Positions 1,830 to 64,000 of a stretch of DNA of 64,000 nt are shown piece by piece. Under the pieces are notes generated by a model. That model did not search any database, was not told the origin of the DNA, and saw only the letters and a program-made list of their open reading frames with translations. Source of the stretch: Granulicella sp. (GTDB lineage: Bacteria > Acidobacteriota > Terriglobia > Terriglobales > Acidobacteriaceae). Positions within the stretch are counted from its first letter, which is position 1; each line of letters begins with the position of its first letter. The translations under genes were made by a program, and so were the position numbers. The stretch is taken from contig DAHWNL010000078.1 of assembly GCA_027339965.1 (NCBI GenBank), positions 64,001-128,000 of the forward strand. Reading direction: 5' to 3'.

Positions 1830-2510
1830 TCAATCCGCGCTCAGGACAGTTTCGAACAACAGGACGCAAGCGGTTGTGAAGACAATCACATAGGCCAAAA
1901 GCACCTTGATCCATAATGTCGGTTCAAACTGGCCGGTGAGCACGGCCGTGGTGGCCTGGATCATGGCCAGAAGCGCCGGCATGGAGATAGGCAGTAAAAC
2001 CAGCGGCAGCAGTGTCTCACGGTTGCGCGTGCGCAGGCTGAGCGCCGCAAAGAAAGTGCCGTTGACCACCAGGGCCCAGGTTCCGAGCGGCAGGATAAAC
2101 AACAGCTTCCACGCCTGGCCCAGTGGCTGCAAGTTGTAAAAAACAGTGAAGATGGGAGCCAGAACGATCTCCACGGCCGTGACGAAGAAAAAGTTGGCCA
2201 GGGCCTTGCCAATGAACAGAGCCGAAGCCGGGGCCTCCAATAGCCGATGCGCGTCCAGAACACTGTTGTTGGTCTCCCGAGCCCAGGACTGATTCAGCGC
2301 CGTCATGGCCGCAAACAGCAGGGCGACCCACAACAGACCACCGCTGATCTGGCGCGTCATGTCAGGATACGACGCCGGGTCAAAGGCCATGGCAAGCACC
2401 ACCACCACCAGCAGGGCGAAGAAGAGCATGCCGTTGATGGAGTCTTTCGTACGCCACTCCAGGCGCAGATCCTTGCGGAGGTGGGTGAGAACGTGCTGGG
2501 CGTAGTTCAT
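1830..2510 (-). CDS. ccmB: heme exporter protein B
   Basis: KDLRLEWR N-terminus, multiple TM helices, LLPLVLLPISMP motif, ccm context. Confidence 0.9.
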   Translation of the reverse strand: MNYAQHVLTHLRKDLRLEWRTKDSINGMLFFALLVVVVLAMAFDPASYPDMTRQISGGLLWVALLFAAMTALNQSWARETNNSVLDAHRLLEAPASALFIGKALANFFFVTAVEIVLAPIFTVFYNLQPLGQAWKLLFILPLGTWALVVNGTFFAALSLRTRNRETLLPLVLLPISMPALLAMIQATTAVLTGQFEPTLWIKVLLAYVIVFTTACVLLFETVLSAD

Positions 2511-53940: not shown

Positions 53941-54876
53941 TCAGGCCGGCAAAGTCCGGGCACCATCCGCTCGCCGGTCCACCATCCGCAGATACTCCTG
54001 AGTCAAGAGCAGGCGAAGCGTCCGGTCCGTTTCTGGAGCGCAGGGGGTCTCAAGAGAGCGGCAGCGATCAATGGCCCGGCGCAGATCCCCGAGAAATGCA
54101 ACGCACGGCCGGCAACCCTCGATATGCTTCCGAATCTTTTCGCACCTTGGCTCCACGACCCGCCCATCCATGTACTCGGAAAGATTGGCGAAGATCTCCC
54201 GGCAGGTCTTTGGCTGGGGGCGCACCCCGGCCTGCCTGCCCCTGCGCTCGCGCACTGCCGCAGGAGCCACTCGGTTCTCTGGCTCGACTCCTTCGCCAGT
54301 CGTTGTGTCCGCGGCGGCGAGAAGCTTTCTCAGTTGCAGCCTCGCCCGGTGCAGCCTTACCCTTACCGTTCCCTGCTCTATTCCCAGCACTTGAGCGATC
54401 TGTTCGGTCTCCAAATCCTCCATATCATGGAGCACCAACACCATCCGGTAAGGTGGAGGCAGCATCAGGATCGCCTCCTGAAGGCGTTGGTTCTGTTCAG
54501 CTCTGGAAACCAGTGTCTCCGGATTGGGATTCGGATCCTTCAGTAACTGGCTCAGTTCGGATTCGGCGGGAGTCAGTTCACTCAACGAAAGCATCTGGAC
54601 TGGGGCTTCACTCACCTTGCGCCGCATCCTCCAACAGCGATTGCGCGCTACCTTATACAGCCACACCGCAAGCGCCTTCGGCTCAGTGATCTTGGCCAAA
54701 TGGGGTAGCGACCGCACAAAAACCTCCTGCGCGGTGTCCTCAGCGTCCTCCGTGTGGCCGCATATCTTCATGCTGAAGGCATACACAGTGTTCTGCAGCA
54801 GTTCCAAGGCTTCGTTGACCGCGGCGGCATCCTTTTGCTGCAGCAGGCCGGTTGCTCGAATCAGTTCCGGACGCAT
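53941..54876 (-). CDS. ECF sigma factor fused to a C-terminal zinc-binding anti-sigma (zf-HC2/ZAS) domain
   Basis: DAEDTAQEVF, WLYKVARN, GTVRVRLHRAR, then CREIFANLSEYMDG...HIEGCRPC; TAGGAG RBS. Confidence 0.85.
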   Translation of the reverse strand: MRPELIRATGLLQQKDAAAVNEALELLQNTVYAFSMKICGHTEDAEDTAQEVFVRSLPHLAKITEPKALAVWLYKVARNRCWRMRRKVSEAPVQMLSLSELTPAESELSQLLKDPNPNPETLVSRAEQNQRLQEAILMLPPPYRMVLVLHDMEDLETEQIAQVLGIEQGTVRVRLHRARLQLRKLLAAADTTTGEGVEPENRVAPAAVRERRGRQAGVRPQPKTCREIFANLSEYMDGRVVEPRCEKIRKHIEGCRPCVAFLGDLRRAIDRCRSLETPCAPETDRTLRLLLTQEYLRMVDRRADGARTLPA

Positions 54877-56174
54877 TGATCTCCTATAGCCCCATCGTTC
54901 TATCCCAGCGCGCCCCAGTTCTCGGTGCGCTCCTTCCTCCATTCTAAAGCTCTGGCTTTCCTGCAATCGGGTCAGTCCCTTGATCTGGTATGAAAAAGAT
55001 CCGCTCAGGCGTCAGACGCTACGACCACCTGCTCGAAGGACTTCAACTGGTCAAAAATTCTTCCGATGCCGCCAAGGGCGAAGTTCTCGACGCGCGCTGC
55101 GCCGCTTTGTTCTTGCCCGGGATCACCTTGGTCCCGGTCTGATCAATGTCTATGCTGAAATGCTCATCGTGGTTCAACTCCAGCGGTGCGGAGCAGAGGA
55201 TACATCGCGGCCATCCGCTCACTTCCTGGAGCCCCCTCACGACCGCCCTCGATCCATTTGCCCACAAGTTGTCCAGAGTCAGGGATGGCTCTCGAACCAC
55301 AGCCAGCACTGCCCTGAACACGGCCTTCACGTTCAGGATGCACAAGAAGGGCGTCTTGCCCGGAAGCCGTTGTTGGCTCCCGCTGAAATCACGGTCCGCT
55401 TGGAACGAAAGGCATAGGCCACAACCACCGACGCGTTGGACTGGGCGCAAAGCCGGGGCTCCCACCCGCCCGTGCCTCCCTTCTACCCCGGGTAGCTATG
55501 GGCAACTCATTCGCTCTGCTTGCCCGCCGTCGTCATTCTGGCTTAGCCCATGACCATTCCCACTGCCCTTTGTCGCATTTCATCCAACGCGGCCCCGAGG
55601 CAAAGGCCTGCCGTGGCCCTTGCTCAGGCCATATTTAAGCCCGGGATCACGCACTCCTTCCATCCAGGATCAATAGGATCGCCCTACAAGGTAACGGCGC
55701 AGCTTTCTGCTTCACTGGACGCCCTGCCAGGATCGGTCATTCCTCTGAACGATAACCAATGTTTAAGAAGGAAGATTCATATCTCCCGGCGAGTATTTCA
55801 TCAAGCTCTCCACTCCCGTTGACCAACCTGTTCCGCCCTATGCAGTCACGATGCGCAGCCGGCTTCGAGGAGCAGCAACGAGAAATCCGCATTTGGACAA
55901 TGCACCAGCGATCCATCTTCCGTCACATGCATTCTGGTCCCCAACTCATTGTGTACAGACGCCGTAAGCATTCGGTGACGATAATCACATACAACCTTCC
56001 TTCGATCTTGATCTGATACATAGCAACGACACTGAGACGATCCGGTGCGCTTCAGTTGCATTCGATATTTCAAAGAGCTTGCAGGTGGAGGAGCGTTTTC
56101 GGACCGTTGGCTGAGATGCAGGTGCCGTGCCATACCTGGAACCAAACAACATTAAATTGATCGAAGGAGAAACG

Positions 56175-56756
56175 ATGAAGCGCATTCTTTCAGTAACTTT
56201 CGTGTTGCTGAGCACAGCAGTTGCCGCGCAGGCGGGAACGATCCACGGTAAGGTGACCGGCGCCAAAGGGCAGTCCGTCGTCTACATTGACGCTATTGCA
56301 GGCAAGACCTTCCCTGCCCCATCGCAGCACGCGGTGATGGATCAAAAGGGTTTGATGTTCGCGCCCCATATTCTGGCGATCCTGAAGGGAACCACTGTGG
56401 ACTTCAAGAACGAAGACAGCGTGGAGCACAACGTGTTCTGGCCTTCCATCAGTGGCAACAAGAGTCTTGGCCACAATATGGGAACCTGGCCGACCGGTCA
56501 ACAACGCAGTTTCAAGTTCGATACTGCTGGAATCGTTCCCCTCCTCTGCAACGTGCATCCCGATATGTATGGTTTTATCGTGGTTTCGCCGACGCCCTAC
56601 TATGCAATAACCGACAAAACAGGCGCCTTCACGATCTCCAATGTTCCCAACGGCACCTATAGCGTGACTGGATGGAACGAGCGAGACAAGATGCGCACCC
56701 ACACCGTTCAGGTTACGGTAAACGGCGATGTAACAGCGACCATTCCCCTGAAGTGA
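56175..56756 (+). CDS. exported cupredoxin-domain protein
   Basis: Signal peptide; HNVF plus CNVHPDM type-1 copper-like ligands; C-terminal prealbumin-like fold; AAGGAG RBS. Confidence 0.75.
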   Translation: MKRILSVTFVLLSTAVAAQAGTIHGKVTGAKGQSVVYIDAIAGKTFPAPSQHAVMDQKGLMFAPHILAILKGTTVDFKNEDSVEHNVFWPSISGNKSLGHNMGTWPTGQQRSFKFDTAGIVPLLCNVHPDMYGFIVVSPTPYYAITDKTGAFTISNVPNGTYSVTGWNERDKMRTHTVQVTVNGDVTATIPLK

Positions 56757-56826
56757 CAGGCGATCCTAGGGCGGGAAATCTCGCAATCCGGTTGCACCAT
56801 AGCGCCCCAGCAGAGAGACAGCCATC

Positions 56827-58800
56827 ATGCTGAAGAGATTTGAAAACAAAGCGGTCGACGCGGGATGGCTGAACAGCAATTTCCCCTGCATGATGGCATG
56901 CCCGGCTCATACCAATGCGGGACGGTATGTTGCGCTTATTGCGGAAGGCAAGTACGAAGATGCCTATCGCTATGCGCGTGGTCCAAATCCTTTGGCCAGC
57001 GTCTGTGGCCGGGTTTGCGCTCACCCCTGCGAAACTGCCTGCCGCCGCGGTGAGATTGATCGCCCTATCTCGATCCGGGCTCTCAAACGCTTTTTGACCG
57101 AGCGTCACGGACCTGAGTCCCGGCGGCCCGTTGATATAAATGCTGGTCGCAGACAGGAAAAGCTGCCCTTCAAAATTGCGATTGTGGGAGCCGGACCGGT
57201 TGGCCTTTCAGCCGCTCATGACCTCGCGGTGATGGGCTACTCGGTCACAATCTTTGAGGCCGCGCCGGTAGCAGGCGGCATGCTCCATCTCGGTCTACCG
57301 GAGTACCGGCTTCCTCGCAGTGTGATCCAGGCGCAAGTACGCGAAATCCTTGCAACCGGAGATATCACGCTAAAACTCAACCATGCCGCGGGCCGAGATT
57401 TCACCGTCTCCGGCCTGCGCAGTCAGGGCTTCGATGCGGTTCTGATTGCCGTCGGAGCCCATCGCAGCCGCGACCTTTCCATTCCAGGAGTTGATCTCGA
57501 CGGCGTCCATAAGGGCATCGACTTCCTCCTGAACGTCAATCTTGGCTATCAATTCACCATCGGCAAGAAAGTGGTCGTGATTGGAGGCGGCAATGTCGCC
57601 ATGGATGTGGCCCGTTCGGCAGCCCGAGAGGTGCTTCGCCAGCATTCCGCTGGAGTGCAGGAACAGGAACCTCTCCAGGAGAATGTCAACGCTGTCGCTG
57701 CCAAGGAGATGATGGACATCTCCCTTTCAGCCCTTCGCCTCGGCGCCAGTGAAGTTCATCTGGTATGCCTTGAAAGCCGAGCAGAAATGCCCGCATCCGA
57801 CGAAGAGATCGCTGAAGCCGAGGAAGAAGGAATCATCCTGCACCCCGGACTCGGCCCAAAGCGTATGATCGGCGGCCCTGACGGCGTTACCGCCCTCGAA
57901 GTGCTTAAAACCAAGCAAGTCTTCGATGCGGACGGCCGCTTTAATCCCACATTCTATGAAAACAGCGAGTTTCAACTCGATTGCGACACAATCATCATGG
58001 CCATCGGCCAGGCTCCACGGCTTGACTTCCTCCAGCCGCAGGATGGGGTTGAAATCTCACGCCGGGGTCTGATCGCCGTAGAACCGCGCACGCTCATGAC
58101 CACATCTCCGGGAGTCTTTGCTGGTGGCGACTGCGCATTTGGACCCCGCCTGATCATCGACAGCGTCGCGGACGGCAAGCGAGCAGCGATGGGAATCGAT
58201 GAGTACCTCCGAGGGACTCGTCATCCGGAGCCGACGATCGAGGTCGAGGTCCTGCAACGCCACAGCATGCCGCTCAATCTCCTGGATCTTGTACGGAACG
58301 ACCCTCCCCTGCTTCCCCTGGACCGTCGGACCGGCGTCACCGAGGTCGAAACGGTTTACGACGAAGAGACAGCCCGGGCAGAAGCGCAACGCTGCCTACA
58401 CTGCTGGGTTAACACGATCTTCGAGGGCAGCCCCCTGGATGGAAGTCAATGCATCCTCTGTGGTGGTTGCGTGGATGTGTGCCCAGAGAATTGTCTTGAG
58501 CTGGTAAGCCTGGATCGCTTCGATTTCCAGCCAGCAGTCGTTGAACAGCTTGTTGCCAACGAGAGCCTCCTCACCGTGGAGCTGGATGATGTTCGAGCGA
58601 AGGAGCTTGGCACGATCTCCGGCTCCGTAATGCTGAAAGACGAGACGCGGTGCATCCGTTGCGGCCTCTGCGCAGCACGATGCCCGGTGGGCACGATCAC
58701 CATGGAATCCTACAACCTGATCCCGGCCGAACCGACCGGGCTCATCTCCCCTGAATCCATCGAAGCGCCTCTGCGCGCGACGTTGGCAAACAGAAAGTGA
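56827..58800 (+). CDS. FAD/NAD(P)-dependent Fe-S oxidoreductase (GltD/NfnB/DsrL-like) with C-terminal 2x[4Fe-4S] domain
   Basis: CMMACP, CGRVCAHPCETAC, GAGPVG, GGGNVAMD, FAGGD, RCLHC, CILCGGCVDVCP, CIRCGLCAARCP. Confidence 0.88.
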   Translation: MLKRFENKAVDAGWLNSNFPCMMACPAHTNAGRYVALIAEGKYEDAYRYARGPNPLASVCGRVCAHPCETACRRGEIDRPISIRALKRFLTERHGPESRRPVDINAGRRQEKLPFKIAIVGAGPVGLSAAHDLAVMGYSVTIFEAAPVAGGMLHLGLPEYRLPRSVIQAQVREILATGDITLKLNHAAGRDFTVSGLRSQGFDAVLIAVGAHRSRDLSIPGVDLDGVHKGIDFLLNVNLGYQFTIGKKVVVIGGGNVAMDVARSAAREVLRQHSAGVQEQEPLQENVNAVAAKEMMDISLSALRLGASEVHLVCLESRAEMPASDEEIAEAEEEGIILHPGLGPKRMIGGPDGVTALEVLKTKQVFDADGRFNPTFYENSEFQLDCDTIIMAIGQAPRLDFLQPQDGVEISRRGLIAVEPRTLMTTSPGVFAGGDCAFGPRLIIDSVADGKRAAMGIDEYLRGTRHPEPTIEVEVLQRHSMPLNLLDLVRNDPPLLPLDRRTGVTEVETVYDEETARAEAQRCLHCWVNTIFEGSPLDGSQCILCGGCVDVCPENCLELVSLDRFDFQPAVVEQLVANESLLTVELDDVRAKELGTISGSVMLKDETRCIRCGLCAARCPVGTITMESYNLIPAEPTGLISPESIEAPLRATLANRK

Positions 58801-58807
58801 GCCAACT

Positions 58808-59299
58808 ATGACCACTACAAAAGACACCTATATCGTTCAGGAAGGCGCGGTGCTCGATCGCAGGGAGTTTTTCACCAAGCTCGGTCTCGGCTCTCTGGGC
58901 GTTGCAGCCGTTGGTACATTGGCGTTTTACTACCAGTACCTTTCACCCAACGTACTCTTTGAACCATCCCCCATTGTGAACGCCGGAGCTATTGATCGGT
59001 ATCCTCTGGGCTCCGTCACGCTCGATGTCAACTCAGCAATCTACCTCGTTCATATAGCCAGAGGCTACTTCTCTCTCAGCGCTATTTGCACTCACCTGGG
59101 CTGTATGACCGCGTGGAAGCCCGAGCTCAACATGATCGCATGTCCATGCCATGGAAGCCGCTTCAACCGCGAAGGGCAAAAGCTGGCAGGTCCGGCGCCT
59201 AAACCTCTTCCATGGCTAAAAACCTGGTTGAGTGACGATGGAGAACTCATGGTCGATCGCTCCATTACGATTCCACAGTTCCAATTCTTGAGGGTATAA
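58808..59299 (+). CDS. Rieske [2Fe-2S] subunit of a Rieske/cytochrome b complex
   Basis: Tat-like LDRREFF, CTHLGC, CPCHGSRF, GPAPKPL. Confidence 0.93.
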   Translation: MTTTKDTYIVQEGAVLDRREFFTKLGLGSLGVAAVGTLAFYYQYLSPNVLFEPSPIVNAGAIDRYPLGSVTLDVNSAIYLVHIARGYFSLSAICTHLGCMTAWKPELNMIACPCHGSRFNREGQKLAGPAPKPLPWLKTWLSDDGELMVDRSITIPQFQFLRV

Positions 59300-59302
59300 A
59301 AG

Positions 59303-60094
59303 ATGCCGGGCACCATCGAAACCTACTTCGACAAACTCGAACGCACGCGGGTGTGGCGGTCGATCTTCCGCAGCGGCAAGGGCACAAGTACGCTTCACAA
59401 TGCGTTGGCCATTCAGCAAAACGTATTTCTGCACCTGTTCCCCACCAAAGTTCGTAAACGAATGCTCGGGCTGGGCGCTACCTGGTACCTCGGAACACTT
59501 ACGTTGGGCACATTCATCGTTCTAGTCGTCACCGGCATTCTCTTGATGCTCTACTACCATCCATCCGTGCCACGTGCATATTCCGATGTAAAAGATCTCC
59601 AATTTGTCGTTTCTTCAGGTCTTTTCCTGCGCAATCTGCATCGCTGGTCGGCCCATGCGATGGTTTTTCTTGCCTTTGCACACATGTTTCGCGTCTTTTA
59701 CCGCGGAGCATACCGTACCCCGAGAGAATTCAACTGGGTGATCGGGGTCGTTCTTCTTCTGGTAACTCTTCTGCTCAGCTACACCGGCTATCTGTTGCCC
59801 TGGGATCAACTCGCCTTCTGGGCAATCACTGTCGGGACGAACATCTCTTCGGCAGTGCCACTTATCGGCGACAAAATACGCTTTATGCTGCTGGGCGGAC
59901 ATCTTGTGAATGCCAATGCCTTGCTTCGCTTTTACGTTCTGCACTGCGTGATTCTACCGCTCACCGCAGTTCTCTTTTTAGCCGTTCATTTCTGGCGAAT
60001 CCGTAAGGACGGTGGTCTATACGTGCGGGAGACCGAGCCCGGAGTCGCAAATTCGGACCAGGACCTTTCAAATCAGGAGCAGGAATCGCGATGA
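59303..60094 (+). CDS. cytochrome b6-like subunit (N-terminal half)
   Basis: [28 protein letters not shown]-x14-H. Confidence 0.93.
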
Positions 60095-60795
60095 CGCCTC
60101 CAAAAGACTACTCGGCCGAAGTCAGCTCGAACATGCAGGTTTCCCAACGGCGCGTTCTTTTCGTAACGCGGCGCACCTCTCCTCAGGTTAAAGCGTACGA
60201 CGAGGAGCGAGTGCAGACCTCTCCCGAGGTTCTGATTCGAGCTCTGCTCGCAGTCGAGTGCCTCCTGATTGCCCTGGTACTGATGTCATTGTTCTTCAAC
60301 GCACCGTTGGAAGGAGTTGCCAATCCGACCAACACGCCTAACCCAGCCAAAGCTCCGTGGTACTTTCTTGGGCTGCAGGAGATTTTGCACTACTTCCCAC
60401 CTGTTGTTGCCGGGGTTCTCATTCCTGGATTGCTCGTTACCGCACTCATCATTATTCCCTATTTTGACATCAACATCGAGGCAGATGGCCTCTTTCTCAA
60501 GAATCGCGAGCGGCGTCTGATGCTCTCGATGGCCGTTGCGGGTGCGCTGTCCGTCTTCTTCCTGTTTTTCAAGGTATATGTGGCGCTGGCGCCAACGTTG
60601 CTCGTGACCGCATTCGTGTTGCTTGCGGCGTTCAGCCCTCCAGAGTCGTCAGGACGCTTTCGACGGTATCTCGCACGAAGACCCGTCTTCTGGTGGATTA
60701 TGACCTGGTTTCTATGTGAACTCATCGTTCTCACGGCAGTAGGCACCTTCTTCCGCGGCCCCGGTTGGTCGTGGGTCTGGCCATGGAGGAGTTAG
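60091..60795 (+). CDS. cytochrome b subunit IV-like protein (C-terminal half, extended)
   Basis: [21 protein letters not shown] (PEWY equivalent), [17 protein letters not shown]. Confidence 0.88.
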
Positions 60796-62853
60796 ATGCA
60801 AACGACAAATAAGGGCTCATTCTCCTCGATCAGGGCATTCTTGTGCGACCCTTTCCTCATGTTTGGCGTCGTCAGCGTGTTCTTGCTCTTGCTGTTGATG
60901 GTGGCCCCGGCAAAGGATTACTTCAGCCAGTGGCGTAGCTATCAAAGGCAATACCTTAACCTCATCCGCAATCGCGGCGATGCGGTAACGTTGCTTCGGC
61001 ATTTTCAAGGCGGAATCCAGCAGATTTGGATTCCTCAGTTGGGCGTGATCGATCGTTGCCAGACCTGTCACGTTGGCGTGGCGGAGGCAAGCCTCTCCGA
61101 TGTGAAAGAGCAGCCGTTCCGGGCACATCCACCGATTCCGCACAAGCTGACCGAGTTCGGGTGTGTGATATGTCATCGTGGACAGGGTGCGGCGACGACC
61201 CTATCGGAGGCGCACCACAGCAAAATGGCCGGCGAAGAGCCCATCCTTCCCATGCGCTACATTGAGGCATCCTGCGGCCAGTGTCACCACGAACCCCTCG
61301 AGGGCACGCCCAAACTCAACCAAGGCCGTCTGCTGCTGGCTCGCTATGGATGCGTCAACTGCCACGCCATCAATCTTCCCGATGGCAGCACCATACAAGC
61401 CACGGACAATGCTCCGCCGTTGACTCACATCGCCGACAAAACCACCCGGGAGTGGATTTACGCCTGGCTCAAAGATCCAACGAGTTATTCCGCGTCATCC
61501 ACCATGCCCAACTTTCTGTTTAGCGACGCCGACGCGAGTGACATCTCCGCATTTTTGATTGCAAACAGTACACCACAATCGGGCGATTCGATGGCGTATG
61601 CAGCAACTTCGAGTGGATCTGGTTCCGATTCATCTGCGGGCGCCGTCCTCTATGGCGAGTCGTTCTGCGCATCCTGCCACGCGACCCAGAATGAGGCCGG
61701 CAATCTGGTCGGTGGAGATCTTGGACCTGAACTGACCAACGTCGGAACGAAAGTCAAGCCAGGTTGGCTCATGGCATGGCTGAAGGATCCACACACGTAC
61801 GACCCGAAGACCAAGATGCCGCAGTATCGCTGGACCGACCAACAACTCCAAACCCTGACTGCGTACGTTGCCAGCAAGACAGATCCGGATTTTGTCGCCA
61901 ATGTTCATCTGCAACCTGCGACCCAGGAGCAGATTGCACATGGTAAAAAGCTGGTCATCGAGTATGGCTGCGCTTCATGCCATGAGATTAGAGGGATACC
62001 GAAGCCAGACAACTTCGCGCCCGATCTCAGCCGAGTCGGGAGTAAGCCTCTGGTTCAGCTCATCTTTTTACCGGGGATGGAGCAGAGCCTGCCGGCCTAC
62101 CTCGCAGAGAAAATCCGACAGCCCCGAGCCTTTGGGCCTTCGCTTCATATGCCGAAGTACAGCTTTAGCAGCAGTCAGATCGACGACTTGACCACTGCGC
62201 TGCTCTCCTTCACGAACCGCAGCTTCACACTCCCTCCAAACTTGCAGATCCCTGCCGTCCGGGACACAAACTATCAGCCGGCAGGCCATGCGGGTCAGTT
62301 AATGGCGAACATCAACTGCCTGAGCTGCCATCGCATTAACGGCAACGGAGGCACAATGGCCCCCAACCTTAGCTGGGAGGGCTCATCCGTTCAACAACCG
62401 TGGCTTGACGCCTTCCTCAAGAACCCCAACACTTTACGCCCGACCCTTATTCGGCGCATGCCCAAATTCAACCTCACGGATTCGGAGCGTACTGTGCTGA
62501 CCAACTACATCCTAGCCGTCTACCAGACACCTGCATTCGAACGTGACGAGATGCCACTGACTGGGTACTCGCCGGATCTCGTCGAGAAGGGCCGACAACT
62601 GTTTTATTCCAAGTACGCCTGTCAGTCCTGCCACATCGTAAATCCCAACCAGGACAAAGGCTACATCGGCCCCACACTGACAACCGTTGGCGCTCGTCTC
62701 AACGCCGCTTGGATCTACCACTATCTGAAAGATCCTCAGGCGATACGGCCTGACACCATTGAGCCCAATCAACACATGAGTGACGACGATGCTCGTGCAT
62801 TAACCGCATTCCTGATGGCGCAGAAGACGATCGCAGGGCAGGGGGCAAAGTGA
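60796..62853 (+). CDS. membrane-anchored octaheme cytochrome c
   Basis: N-terminal TM helix; eight CxxCH motifs (CQTCH, CVICH, CGQCH, CVNCH, CASCH, CASCH, CLSCH, CQSCH). Confidence 0.92.
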   Translation: MQTTNKGSFSSIRAFLCDPFLMFGVVSVFLLLLLMVAPAKDYFSQWRSYQRQYLNLIRNRGDAVTLLRHFQGGIQQIWIPQLGVIDRCQTCHVGVAEASLSDVKEQPFRAHPPIPHKLTEFGCVICHRGQGAATTLSEAHHSKMAGEEPILPMRYIEASCGQCHHEPLEGTPKLNQGRLLLARYGCVNCHAINLPDGSTIQATDNAPPLTHIADKTTREWIYAWLKDPTSYSASSTMPNFLFSDADASDISAFLIANSTPQSGDSMAYAATSSGSGSDSSAGAVLYGESFCASCHATQNEAGNLVGGDLGPELTNVGTKVKPGWLMAWLKDPHTYDPKTKMPQYRWTDQQLQTLTAYVASKTDPDFVANVHLQPATQEQIAHGKKLVIEYGCASCHEIRGIPKPDNFAPDLSRVGSKPLVQLIFLPGMEQSLPAYLAEKIRQPRAFGPSLHMPKYSFSSSQIDDLTTALLSFTNRSFTLPPNLQIPAVRDTNYQPAGHAGQLMANINCLSCHRINGNGGTMAPNLSWEGSSVQQPWLDAFLKNPNTLRPTLIRRMPKFNLTDSERTVLTNYILAVYQTPAFERDEMPLTGYSPDLVEKGRQLFYSKYACQSCHIVNPNQDKGYIGPTLTTVGARLNAAWIYHYLKDPQAIRPDTIEPNQHMSDDDARALTAFLMAQKTIAGQGAK

Positions 62854-63584
62854 TGAAAAGGACTCTATTGGCCGTTGTAGTGCTTCTGTCCACTATGGTC
62901 TCAGGTTGTAATCACAAGAGGGCTTTGCCGCCCGCACTGGCCGCCAAAGCGAATGGTACCGCCATCGTGGTGGTTAGTGGAGATAAGCAACTCGGGTCAA
63001 TCGGATCCCAGCTTCCCCAACCTCTCATCTTGCAGATCAATGACGACCAGGGAAATGCGGTGACTGGAGCCAACGTGCAACTGTACGGACCTCCCGGCGT
63101 CACCTTTACCCCGCAGCAAATTCTCACTGACGACAATGGGCAAGCGACCTTCAAGGTAACCATGGGTGGAATCAATGGCCGGTACGAACTTACCGCATCT
63201 TCTCAGGATGCGCACGGCAGGACATTCAGTCTCACGATTCCAGAGTTTGCGGCAGGTTACCAACAGGAGGTAGGTTACGAAGTCAATCAACAATACTGTT
63301 CGCGGTGCCACAACCCCGACTCAACTTCGGAGCAGGTTTCTAACTATGACAATCTCGCTGTCAAGCCGCACCGCTTTTCCGACGGATTGATCTACAACAA
63401 CATTTCAGAGACTGATTTGACGACCATCATCTCGCACGGAGGCGCTGCAATGAATCGTTCAGCACTGATGCCGCCCTACGGGTGGACGCTCAACAAGGCG
63501 GAGGTTCAGGGAGTGATTGCTTACATTCGGCTGGTTTCTGATCCGCCCTATGTTGCTCCAGGTGTCGTGTATCAGAAGCATTGA
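62850..63584 (+). CDS. lipoprotein with Ig-like (Big_1) domain and monoheme cytochrome c
   Basis: Lipobox VSGC; VSGDKQ…TDDNGQA Ig-like segment; CSRCH plus distal MPPYG. Confidence 0.82.
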   Translation: MMKRTLLAVVVLLSTMVSGCNHKRALPPALAAKANGTAIVVVSGDKQLGSIGSQLPQPLILQINDDQGNAVTGANVQLYGPPGVTFTPQQILTDDNGQATFKVTMGGINGRYELTASSQDAHGRTFSLTIPEFAAGYQQEVGYEVNQQYCSRCHNPDSTSEQVSNYDNLAVKPHRFSDGLIYNNISETDLTTIISHGGAAMNRSALMPPYGWTLNKAEVQGVIAYIRLVSDPPYVAPGVVYQKH

Positions 63585-63763
63585 AATCACGCAAATGGTG
63601 GATTCGTAACGCAGGCAGAAGTGCCGACAATCTCTTTCCTCAGTACCAGGTTGAATCCCTGCCGGCACTCCGTGCACCTTGAGACGCTTCATCCCACCAA
63701 ATGGTGGAACCGGGAATATTGGCACGATCGTGCGCAATTGATTGATTCAAACTAGGAGGATAT

Positions 63764-64000
63764 ATGAACATCTCACCTTCGGGGACCAGGACTCTGCTAT
63801 CAGTGGCAGCACTTTCAGTCCTGATCTCCGCATTTCCCAGGGATGCAATGGCCGTTCCCAGTTATGCGCGCCAAACTGGTCTTCCCTGCAACGGCTGCCA
63901 CTATGATCCGCCGGAACTGAACCCCGCTGGACGGCTTTTCAAGCTACTGGCCTACGTGCAGCGATCGAGCCTTCTCGGCAGCATAACGGCAAACAGCGGC
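63764..64000 (+). CDS. Cyc2-like cytochrome-porin N-terminus (truncated by the window end)
   Basis: AGGAGG RBS; manual translation MNISPSGTRTLLSVAALSVLISAFPRDAMAVPSYARQTGLPCNGCHYDPPELNPAGRLFKLLAY. Confidence 0.72.
   Translation, partial: MNISPSGTRTLLSVAALSVLISAFPRDAMAVPSYARQTGLPCNGCHYDPPELNPAGRLFKLLAYVQRSSLLGSITANSG

What the first reader, a model, noticed from the sequence alone, without database searches (positions are those of the whole stretch)
56175..64000. Candidate outer-membrane-to-NAD(H) electron conduit: Cyc2-like porin-cytochrome, multiheme Rieske/cytb complex and flavo-Fe-S oxidoreductase
Seen: co-oriented cupredoxin, flavo-Fe-S enzyme, Rieske, cytochrome b6-like subunit, subunit IV, octaheme cytochrome, cytochrome lipoprotein and a Cyc2-like start; from the flavoprotein to the lipoprotein the gaps are under 10 bp or overlapping. 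Established: Rieske/cytb operons with an NAD(P) oxidoreductase and multiheme cytochromes occur in anammox bacteria, where bifurcation to NAD(P)+ has been proposed; in Acidithiobacillus, Cyc2, a blue copper protein and a reverse-running bc complex support Fe(II) oxidation. Inference: one locus spanning outer membrane, periplasm, quinone pool and cytoplasmic NAD(H), for extracellular electron uptake or export. The direction cannot be read from sequence.
Basis: partly seen in the sequence, partly recalled or inferred. Interest (0 to 1): 0.85.

Follow-up and report, generated by a model that had tools for sequence, protein, structure and literature searches.

The report
Iron-porin on NAD-linked complex III
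This acidobacterium carries a conserved eight-gene cluster that joins an outer-membrane haem-porin of the Cyc2 "iron oxidase" family to an anammox-type complex III with its own NAD-binding subunit; it likely sends electrons out to ferric iron when oxygen is low, which would mean the Cyc2 marker does not always signal iron oxidation.

Summary
Observation confirmed and completed. The genome continues the last gene into a 452-aa Cyc2-family haem-porin, modelled as a 16-strand barrel. A Cyc2-like gene from either of two distant families flanks the core in 41 of 44 complete related loci, and in 13 of 13 flavoprotein-plus-cupredoxin loci from an even phylum sample. The core resembles anammox Rieske/cytochrome b complexes but lacks the haem cN cysteine and the quinone-reduction-site acid; its flavoprotein looks NAD(H)-specific. 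It is therefore likely a fork rather than a straight wire: menaquinol would split into one electron for NAD+ and one for Cyc2, or the reverse. I favour export to Fe(III). Sister operons carry cbb3- or aa3-type oxidases instead of Cyc2. A conserved Crp/Fnr box (42 of 55 loci) is shared in this genome with MtrA-type and pyruvate:ferredoxin oxidoreductase genes. No RuBisCO was found. Against this, tested Cyc2 proteins oxidise Fe(II), and the APWY motif was proposed to mark reverse-running complexes. Direction and binding are untested. The scan noted this operon before in other genomes; my ten paper searches found no description.

The parts
55974..55989 (.). Crp/Fnr-type palindrome GGTGA-N6-TCACA, 186 bp before the first gene
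   Evidence: box with <=1 mismatch before the first gene in 42 of 55 related loci vs 0.8 per set in shuffles and 4 of 47 behind the last gene
56175..56756 (+). Predicted periplasmic type-1 blue-copper protein (cupredoxin plus CarboxypepD_reg-like domain), with a signal-peptide-like N-terminus
   Evidence: Pfam Copper-bind and CarboxypepD_reg; H85, C125, H128, M131 in 59 of 59 aligned homologues
56827..58800 (+). Predicted cytoplasmic FAD/Fe-S/NAD(H) oxidoreductase (GltD/Nfn/DsrL-like, two C-terminal 4Fe-4S motifs); CLE in place of the NADP-binding YRR; invariant K87
   Evidence: (best solved relatives NfnA/Bfu 9n5u, 9bov); YRR rule from PMC7596348
58808..59299 (+). Rieske 2Fe-2S protein with twin-arginine N-terminus, Ser/Phe (mid-to-high potential) type
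   Evidence: best PDB hit Kuenenia Kuste4569 9rk4, E 4e-24; S117 in 74 of 75, F119 in 70 of 75
59303..60094 (+). Four-helix b6-like cytochrome b: H113/H127/H214/H229, extra invariant H44, no haem cN cysteine (YLGT vs b6 CLGG)
60091..60795 (+). Subunit IV with APWY Qo motif, extended C-terminal helices, and Ala51 where bovine cytochrome b has the Qn-site Asp
   Evidence: APWY 70 of 70; alignment PEVLIRA = PYYTIKD; position 51 Ala 31, Glu 23, Val 6, Ser 4, Thr 2 as the five commonest of 70
60796..62853 (+). Membrane-anchored octahaem cytochrome c: predicted bis-His trihaem N-terminal part, then five class-I-like monohaem domains
   Evidence: 8 CxxCH; TM 11-44; conserved H111/H116/H140 and M237/M341/M452/M555; M661 in only 36 of 58; five Cytochrom_C stretches
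62850..63584 (+). Predicted lipoprotein: Ig-like (Big_1) domain plus monohaem cytochrome c
   Evidence: lipobox-like VSG-C, found in most homologues; Pfam; the Ig domain is missing in distant homologues of about 160 aa
63764..64000 (+). First 79 codons of a Cyc2-family fused cytochrome-porin; the gene continues to window-equivalent 65122 (G000:C70:127764-129122, 452 aa)
   Evidence: motif AVPSYARQT-CNGCH-PEL vs Keffer consensus; 16-strand model, PorB/OprP Z about 19

Best explanation
The eight genes form one conserved cluster that likely encodes a low-oxygen-induced, forked respiratory chain which would oxidise menaquinol and send one electron out through Cyc2 to extracellular Fe(III) and the other inward to NAD+. 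Shown: the genes, their cofactor motifs, the porin fold, the conserved Cyc2 link, the missing haem cN cysteine and Qn acid, and the Crp/Fnr-type box. Inferred: quinol is oxidised at the APWY Qo site. The high-potential electron passes Rieske, octahaem, then the copper protein and/or lipoprotein cytochrome, to Cyc2 and on to soluble Fe(III) or another outside acceptor such as humics. The low-potential electron crosses haems b. With no working quinone-reduction site, it would reach the Fe-S chain and FAD of the flavoprotein and reduce NAD+, which complex I would reoxidise with proton pumping. This lets a heterotroph capture more of the large quinol-to-Fe(III) drop in acid water.
For: Cyc2 link: 39 of 44 complete loci by motif plus 2 motif variants seen by eye = 41 of 44; 13 of 13 flavoprotein+cupredoxin loci among 60 of 61 loci from 200 evenly drawn Acidobacteriota genomes. 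Two Cyc2 families alike only at the N-terminus fill the slot, before or after the core. Direction: the same core carries a cbb3-like oxidase plus the flavoprotein in 9 of those 60 loci, and aa3 subunit I genes in 9 more. None of the 17 Cyc2 loci showed an oxidase gene, whereas the Acidithiobacillus rus operon encodes cyc2 with coxBACD (PMC13741234). Perfect Crp/Fnr boxes number only 11 in this 3.8-Mb genome. They precede both decahaem (DmsE/MtrA family) plus 901-aa gene pairs, pyruvate:ferredoxin oxidoreductase and a tetrahaem-NrfD-like cluster; Cys-bearing Crp/Fnr regulators carry 1-mismatch boxes. No RuBisCO match (98.9% complete); complex I and futalosine-type menaquinone genes are present. 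Acidicapsa and Acidobacterium reduce Fe(III) under low oxygen, and Cyc2 has been proposed as terminal Fe(III) reductase behind bc1 and rusticyanin (PMC8790237). Holders of this DNA include mine drainage and mine tailings runs. Qn loss; Hauser et al. call unwanted Qn quinone reduction the main problem for NAD(P)+ reduction in Kuenenia.
Against: All three biochemically tested Cyc2 proteins are Fe(II) oxidases (PMC8406198). Kao and Hunte tie the APWY motif to reverse-running complexes, though untested and APWY is also in the oxidase-linked sister operons. The NAD+ branch is marginal: +0.04 to +0.155 V before the proton-motive force (menaquinone -70 mV recalled). The genome already has two MtrA-type conduits for export. 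The box also precedes citrate synthase, 2-oxoglutarate dehydrogenase and ACIII, so it is not purely anaerobic; its signal is unknown; it was found in only 3 of the 12 three-part phylum loci with upstream sequence (one of these scored at a spurious first gene). In this genome cyc2 is 179 bp behind the lipoprotein gene, with no box of its own. The Qn acid is kept (Glu) in distant homologues that also have Cyc2. H44 also occurs in complexes without the flavoprotein. Three of 44 complete loci lack Cyc2.
Confidence: 0.45

Rival explanations
1. Uptake: the same fork runs backwards. Fe(II) reduces Cyc2, the electron travels to the Rieske centre, and a second electron from NADH comes through the flavoprotein and haems b. 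Together they reduce menaquinone at the Qo site (confurcation), and the quinol is respired by bd or ACIII-aa3. This would be mixotrophic Fe(II) oxidation that consumes rather than makes NADH.
For: Known Cyc2 chemistry; APWY proposed for reverse complexes, e.g. Geobacter p-cresol oxidation; the genome has aa3, ACIII-aa3 and bd oxidases and separate MtrA-type systems that could handle export; acidic Fe(II)-rich habitat.
Against: No oxidase gene in any of 17 Cyc2 loci. In acid, Fe(II) at +720 to +770 mV is far above a Ser/Phe Rieske centre (+200 to +335 mV). The box is shared with pyruvate:ferredoxin oxidoreductase and decahaem operons. No carbon fixation gene found. Spending NADH here bypasses complex I pumping.
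Confidence: 0.25
2. Straight export wire: the flavoprotein is an NADH dehydrogenase feeding quinone through haem bN, and the complex passes both electrons on to Cyc2, forming a self-contained NADH:Fe(III) oxidoreductase, like the sister NADH-to-cbb3 operons.
For: NAD(H)-type, not NADP-type, binding motif; strongly downhill; sister operons hold flavoprotein, bc core and cbb3-like oxidase in one block.
Against: Haem cN cysteine and Qn acid are absent in this clade. The genome has complex I. Hauser et al. reject this route in Kuenenia as wasteful.
Confidence: 0.13
3. Cyc2 and the cupredoxin are a mobile, co-regulated module that serves the periplasmic pool generally, or handles another substrate (metal sensing or detoxification, humics, both directions). 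The bc-NAD complex drains into other periplasmic acceptors and is not dedicated to Cyc2.
For: Related Cyc2 genes occur alone, with only a cupredoxin, with ACIII, or with a long cytochrome b. Full-length homologues are on plasmids of Caballeronia, Ralstonia and Acidiphilium. The Cyc2 here is only 59% like that of the locus whose cytochrome b is 94% identical, so it is exchanged. Keffer et al. warn that function outside cluster 1 is uncertain.
Against: Exchanged copies and a second family keep returning to the same operon (41 of 44). Where cyc2 is first, the box lies upstream of it. 12 of 20 relatives with this Cyc2 family have it within about 5 kb of a cytochrome b.
Confidence: 0.17

Closest known systems
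Kuenenia stuttgartiensis Rieske/cytochrome b complexes Kuste4569-4574 and Kustd1480-1485 (Hauser et al. 2025, PMC12954380; Dibrova subfamily G, PMC5600118; APWY clade, PMC4122944)
   Same: Split b6-like cytochrome b plus extended subunit IV, multihaem cytochrome c in place of c1/f, Nfn/Bfu-like NAD(P) flavo-Fe-S subunit with a Lys at a cluster site, Ser-type Rieske protein (Kuste4569 is the best PDB hit), N-terminal His and C-terminal Arg/Lys in cytochrome b.
   Different: No haem cN cysteine and no Qn acid here; NAD rather than NADP motif; a cupredoxin, a cytochrome lipoprotein and an outer-membrane Cyc2 instead of an HAO-like octahaem; host without RuBisCO match, not an anammox organism.
Acidithiobacillus ferrooxidans Cyc2-rusticyanin-Cyc1-aa3 / CycA1-bc1 chain (rus and petI operons)
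   Same: Cyc2 porin-cytochrome, blue copper carrier, Rieske/cytochrome b complex; also proposed to run outward for Fe(III) reduction (PMC8790237).
   Different: There cyc2 is encoded with the aa3 oxidase and the bc1 complex is a separate, unsplit enzyme that needs complex I. Here cyc2 is encoded with the bc core and an NAD subunit, and no oxidase.
Geobacter extHIJKLMNOPQS cluster (PMC5877670)
   Same: One cluster with an outer-membrane porin, multihaem cytochromes, Rieske, split cytochrome b and a cytochrome lipoprotein; linked to reduction (selenite/tellurite). ExtP, ExtQ and ExtS models are the top or near-top NCBIfam matches.
   Different: All three scores are below cut-off (263/290, 57/150, 84/100). 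ExtI has no haem. No flavoprotein or cupredoxin is listed there; no rhodanese here.

Membership tests
Cyc2 fused cytochrome-porins (Keffer et al. 2021) | AXPXFAR[Q/K][T/Y] before a single CXXCH, PXL after it | tested here: met
   AVPSYARQT-GLP-CNGCH-YD-PPEL, with Tyr for Phe; Tyr invariant in 21 of 21. The paralogue at C70:22142 has the exact Phe.
Cyc2 fused cytochrome-porins (Keffer et al. 2021) | At least 365 aa with a 16-strand OprP-like barrel | tested here: met
   452 aa; 16 long strands; OprP Z 19.1, rmsd 4.0, 314 aligned. Mean pLDDT 58; the haem domain is under 50 and not modelled reliably.
Cyc2 fused cytochrome-porins (Keffer et al. 2021) | FeGenie HMM / cluster 1-3 assignment | not testable with these tools
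   HMMs and reference sequences not held; no Pfam, NCBIfam or PDB sequence match.
Cyc2 fused cytochrome-porins (Keffer et al. 2021) | Fe(II) oxidase activity | not testable with these tools
   needs biochemistry
Anammox-type NAD(P)-linked Rieske/cytochrome b complex | Four-helix cytochrome b plus separate subunit IV | tested here: met
Anammox-type NAD(P)-linked Rieske/cytochrome b complex | Subunit IV with five helices | tested here: inconclusive
   hydropathy gives four hydrophobic regions, one (142-184) long enough for two helices
Anammox-type NAD(P)-linked Rieske/cytochrome b complex | Operonic Nfn/Bfu-like FAD/Fe-S NAD(P) oxidoreductase; hexa- or octahaem cytochrome c | tested here: met
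Anammox-type NAD(P)-linked Rieske/cytochrome b complex | Haem cN (CxGG cysteine) | tested here: not met
   YLGT here; Cys in 6 of 71 aligned homologues, none of the six with a flavoprotein gene in its locus
Anammox-type NAD(P)-linked Rieske/cytochrome b complex | His for the predicted extra haem b at the dimer interface | tested here: inconclusive
   H44 is invariant and similarly placed to Kuste4571 His43, but Kuenenia cytochrome b was not aligned, and the His is also in flavoprotein-free complexes
Anammox-type NAD(P)-linked Rieske/cytochrome b complex | Subfamily G / APWY clade placement in a cytochrome b tree; co-migration of subunits | not tested
Geobacter Ext cluster | ExtP, ExtQ, ExtS above NCBIfam cut-offs; haem-less ExtI porin; rhodanese ExtH | tested here: not met
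Acidithiobacillus rus operon | cyc2 encoded with aa3 oxidase genes | tested here: not met
   no oxidase gene in the cluster or in 17 of 17 Cyc2 loci

The most novel reading that the evidence does not exclude
A widespread, undescribed iron-respiring machine of soil, peat and mine-water Acidobacteriota: a complex III that has lost its quinone-reduction site, bifurcates menaquinol between NAD+ and an outer-membrane Cyc2 acting as Fe(III) reductase, and loops the NADH through complex I. Cyc2 would be one of several interchangeable terminal modules (cbb3, aa3, HAO-like, Cyc2) on one bc core.
Probability: 0.35. Interest if true: 0.9.

Novelty: new variant of a known kind. Interest (0 to 1): 0.72.

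Why it matters
Acidobacteria are long-known low-oxygen Fe(III) reducers without an established mechanism (PMC8790237), and surveys call cyc2-bearing Acidobacteriota genomes predicted iron oxidisers (PMC13594681). If this cluster exports electrons, that marker misleads for a dominant soil phylum: 13 of 200 sampled genomes have the three-part form. It also offers a cleaner test of quinone-based bifurcation to NAD+, so far proposed only for slow-growing anammox bacteria, because this clade has lost the competing Qn-site features.

Tried and rejected
Complex prediction (flavoprotein C-terminal domain with the cytochrome b dimer) was not available; no verdict. A flavoprotein structure job had not finished at submission; the Foldseek 'pdb' search was busy and the wide VIA search was used instead. 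No RNA holder listed, so expression is untested. The sigma-70 promoter/terminator scan found fewer sites than shuffles and none in the lipoprotein-cyc2 gap; that gap folds no better than shuffles (z +1.0). The E. coli-type FNR box (TTGAT-N4-ATCAA) was never better than 2 mismatches in 55 loci. In the window alone the Crp box is not above chance (2 found, 1.42 expected); only conservation makes it real. Cyc2 had no Pfam, NCBIfam or PDB sequence match; the Atlas gave only unnamed cytochrome clusters and a Porin_O_P lead. No MenA match and no convincing NiFe hydrogenase. The H44 'extra haem' argument was dropped as non-specific. The Cyc2 tree is the quick one; two rows were dropped for a missing motif. 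Dibrova 2013 was not held; ten Brink 2013, Kartal 2013 and de Almeida 2016 were not read; no supplements were read (Dibrova 2017 Fig. S1 and Kao 2014 Table S3 may show such neighbourhoods). One paper fetched under a wrong id was irrelevant.
Full report
OBSERVATION. The window is part of contig C70 of a 3.82-Mb, 98.9% complete genome. The closest cytochrome b relative is from a Terracidiphilus MAG (94%). The last gene continues to 452 aa and ends in Phe. It has AVPSYARQT, one CNGCH and PEL, matching the Cyc2 consensus of Keffer et al. except Tyr for Phe (PMC8406198, passages). Its model (21-row alignment, mean pLDDT 58, haem domain unreliable) has 16 long strands. Its best structural matches are PorB (Z 19.4) and OprP (Z 19.1), the same porins named for Cyc2 proteins in print. 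The region is 54-56% GC against 60.8% for the genome.

CONSERVATION. A second Cyc2-like family fills the slot in 38 loci; the two align only over 122 N-terminal columns (98% probability). Among 44 loci with the full core and at least 2 kb on both sides, 39 have Cyc2 by motif and two more by eye, so 41 of 44; L029, L041 and L044 lack it. Among 60 relatives only 3 have the orthologous cytochrome b, and all 3 have the same eight-gene order. In 200 evenly drawn Acidobacteriota genomes, 53 have a close cytochrome b. Of 60 of the 61 loci, 13 have flavoprotein, Cyc2 and cupredoxin; 4 Cyc2 and cupredoxin only; 22 flavoprotein only; 20 a cupredoxin-like gene only; 1 none. In a quick tree, this family's Cyc2 proteins from NAD-linked operons form one clade (support 99; 25 rows, one of them from a cupredoxin-only locus), with the downstream position in three separate subgroups. 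The locus with a 94% identical cytochrome b has only a 59% identical Cyc2. So the gene is moved and exchanged but stays with the operon. Kin are not independent, so these are counts, not tests.

ANATOMY. Cupredoxin: H85/C125/H128/M131 in 59 of 59. Flavoprotein: best solved relatives are NfnA/Bfu subunits. K87 is invariant, recalling the Lys at the cluster next to FAD in Kuenenia. CLE replaces YRR, which in DsrL/NfnB marks NADP use (PMC7596348, passages), so NAD(H) is predicted. Rieske: best hit Kuste4569, Ser/Phe type, predicted +200 to +335 mV. Cytochrome b: four haem-b His, YLGT instead of CLGG; the Cys is found in 6 of 71 homologues, none with the flavoprotein. Dibrova 2017 (passages) reports that short subfamily-G cytochromes b usually keep CxGG, so this is an exception. 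Subunit IV: APWY in 70 of 70. Ala51 aligns with the Asp of bovine PYYTIKD, the Qn-site acid (role recalled); the near clade has mostly Ala, Val, Ser or Thr, distant loci Glu. Octahaem: one anchor, a predicted bis-His trihaem, then five monohaem domains. Lipoprotein: lipobox, Ig domain, one haem.

WHAT THIS MEANS FOR THE 'CONDUIT'. In a Rieske/cytochrome b complex the two chains leave one quinol site (established). The Cyc2 arm and the NAD arm are therefore reduced together (bifurcation) or oxidised together (confurcation). A straight wire between them needs a working Qn site, and both features that support one (haem cN, Qn acid) are missing here. Hauser et al. (abstract, introduction, results and discussion read) name unwanted Qn reduction as the main obstacle to NAD(P)+ reduction in Kuenenia. 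This clade looks built to avoid it (inference).

DIRECTION. For export: sister operons put terminal oxidases on the same core: cbb3-like CcoN/CcoO plus the flavoprotein in 9 loci, aa3 subunit I in 9 loci, while 4 more are joined to ACIII-like genes. None of the 17 Cyc2 loci showed an oxidase, unlike the Acidithiobacillus rus operon (PMC13741234, passages). A TGTGA-N6-TCACA palindrome lies within 400 bp of the first gene, whether cyc2 or cupredoxin, in 42 of 55 loci (31 perfect). Mononucleotide shuffles give 0.8, and the stretch behind the last gene 4 of 47. The window's copy is 55974-55989. The genome has 11 perfect and 53 near-perfect boxes. Perfect ones precede both decahaem operons, pyruvate:ferredoxin oxidoreductase, a tetrahaem-NrfD-like cluster, citrate synthase and 2-oxoglutarate dehydrogenase. 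One-mismatch ones precede ACIII and two Crp/Fnr regulators with N-terminal cysteines, and genes I read by eye as hybrid cluster protein and universal stress protein (names recalled). No RuBisCO was found; complex I, bd, two haem-copper oxidases and futalosine-pathway genes are present. Heterotrophic Acidicapsa and Acidobacterium reduce Fe(III) under low oxygen, and Cyc2 has been proposed as a terminal Fe(III) reductase (PMC8790237, passages). Ten runs hold half or more of this DNA; labels are mine drainage, sediment, wastewater and unlabelled, five of them possible sources. A mine-tailings run from another study has near-exact pieces.

For uptake: tested Cyc2 proteins oxidise Fe(II). Kao and Hunte link APWY to reverse running, on one untested Geobacter proposal (PMC4122944, section 13 and passages); yet APWY is also in the oxidase-linked sisters. 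The NAD+ arm has only +0.04 to +0.155 V to spare before the proton-motive force. The genome already has two MtrA-type systems. The box is largely confined to the near clade (3 of 12 three-part phylum loci), and cyc2 here has none of its own.

WIDER PATTERN. The same contig has a second unit: cyc2 (50% identical), Rieske, and a long PEWY cytochrome b fused to four haems (C70:22142-27181). In relatives this Cyc2 family also sits beside ACIII, beside a lone cupredoxin, or alone. In 12 of 20 relatives that have it, it lies within about 5 kb of a cytochrome b (read). Behind the window's cyc2 lie an IS-like remnant (IS1595-type, recalled), an 84% identical second cyc2 with a stop at codon 66 that is also in contigs of two other runs, and an integrase-bearing IS.

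KNOWN OR NEW. The core works like, and largely matches, the anammox complexes but fails the haem cN test. Geobacter's Ext cluster is a precedent for porin plus Rieske/cytochrome b in one cluster (PMC5877670, passages), but its family models score below cut-off. Searches (search 55 concerned DsrL) listed no paper describing this combination; most hits were seen as listings only. PMC3509893, PMC10654088, PMC13594681 and the Tenderiales preprint were seen as passages. Several key reviews and all supplements were not seen. The scan's index shows look-alikes in 168 windows and earlier AI notes of the same operon; these are not independent support.

VERDICT. Real, conserved and apparently undescribed: a new variant of a known kind. 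Export with bifurcation to NAD+ 0.45; reverse uptake 0.25; loose module 0.17; straight NADH-to-Fe(III) chain 0.13. Interest 0.72.

Noticed in passing
G000:C70:22142-27181 (L195; outside the window): Second Cyc2 unit: cyc2 paralogue, Rieske, long PEWY cytochrome b fused to four c-haems (910 aa); the same layout in G020, G037, G057 and others.
   Followed up: partly
L001:12026-13384 (window-equivalent 66025-67383): Tandem cyc2 copy, 84% identical, with an in-frame stop at codon 66 that is also in contigs of two other runs; IS-like remnants on both sides.
   Followed up: yes
G000:C44:28048-31900 and C80:11000-14872 (L191, L193): Two near-identical DmsE/MtrA-family decahaem plus 901-aa gene pairs (likely porins; no NCBIfam match), each behind a perfect Crp/Fnr box.
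   Followed up: partly
L025, L028, L089 and others (26 of 80 loci), just after the lipoprotein gene: A conserved gene of about 430 aa with no Pfam match accompanies the operon; 22 of 26 with the second Cyc2 family by motif, none with this window's family.
   Followed up: partly
L142, L143, L146, L148, L152, L155, L158, L159, L160: Sister operons: Rieske, fused APWY cytochrome b, heptahaem, cbb3-like CcoN/CcoO and the same flavoprotein. L151, L153, L154 and L156 join the core to ACIII-like genes.
   Followed up: partly
L001:15950-19131 and on to G000:C70:148400 (window-equivalent 69949-84400): Downstream cluster with a hydrazine-synthase-alpha middle domain protein, an ASPIC/UnbV protein, a beta-propeller-like protein with three CxxCH, and then a tetrahaem, a 4Fe-4S protein and NrfD behind a perfect Crp/Fnr box; a similar three-haem protein lies on C81.
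   Followed up: no
window 53941-54966 (-): ECF-type sigma factor fused to a zf-HC2 anti-sigma zinc finger, divergent about 1.2 kb upstream of the cluster; no link tested.
   Followed up: no
G000:C21:9483-16100 (L187): Eleven-haem and five-haem cytochromes beside a Cys-bearing Crp/Fnr regulator, with five boxes within 6 kb.
   Followed up: partly
window 1875-1890: A perfect TGTGA-N6-TCACA box; target not identified.
   Followed up: no
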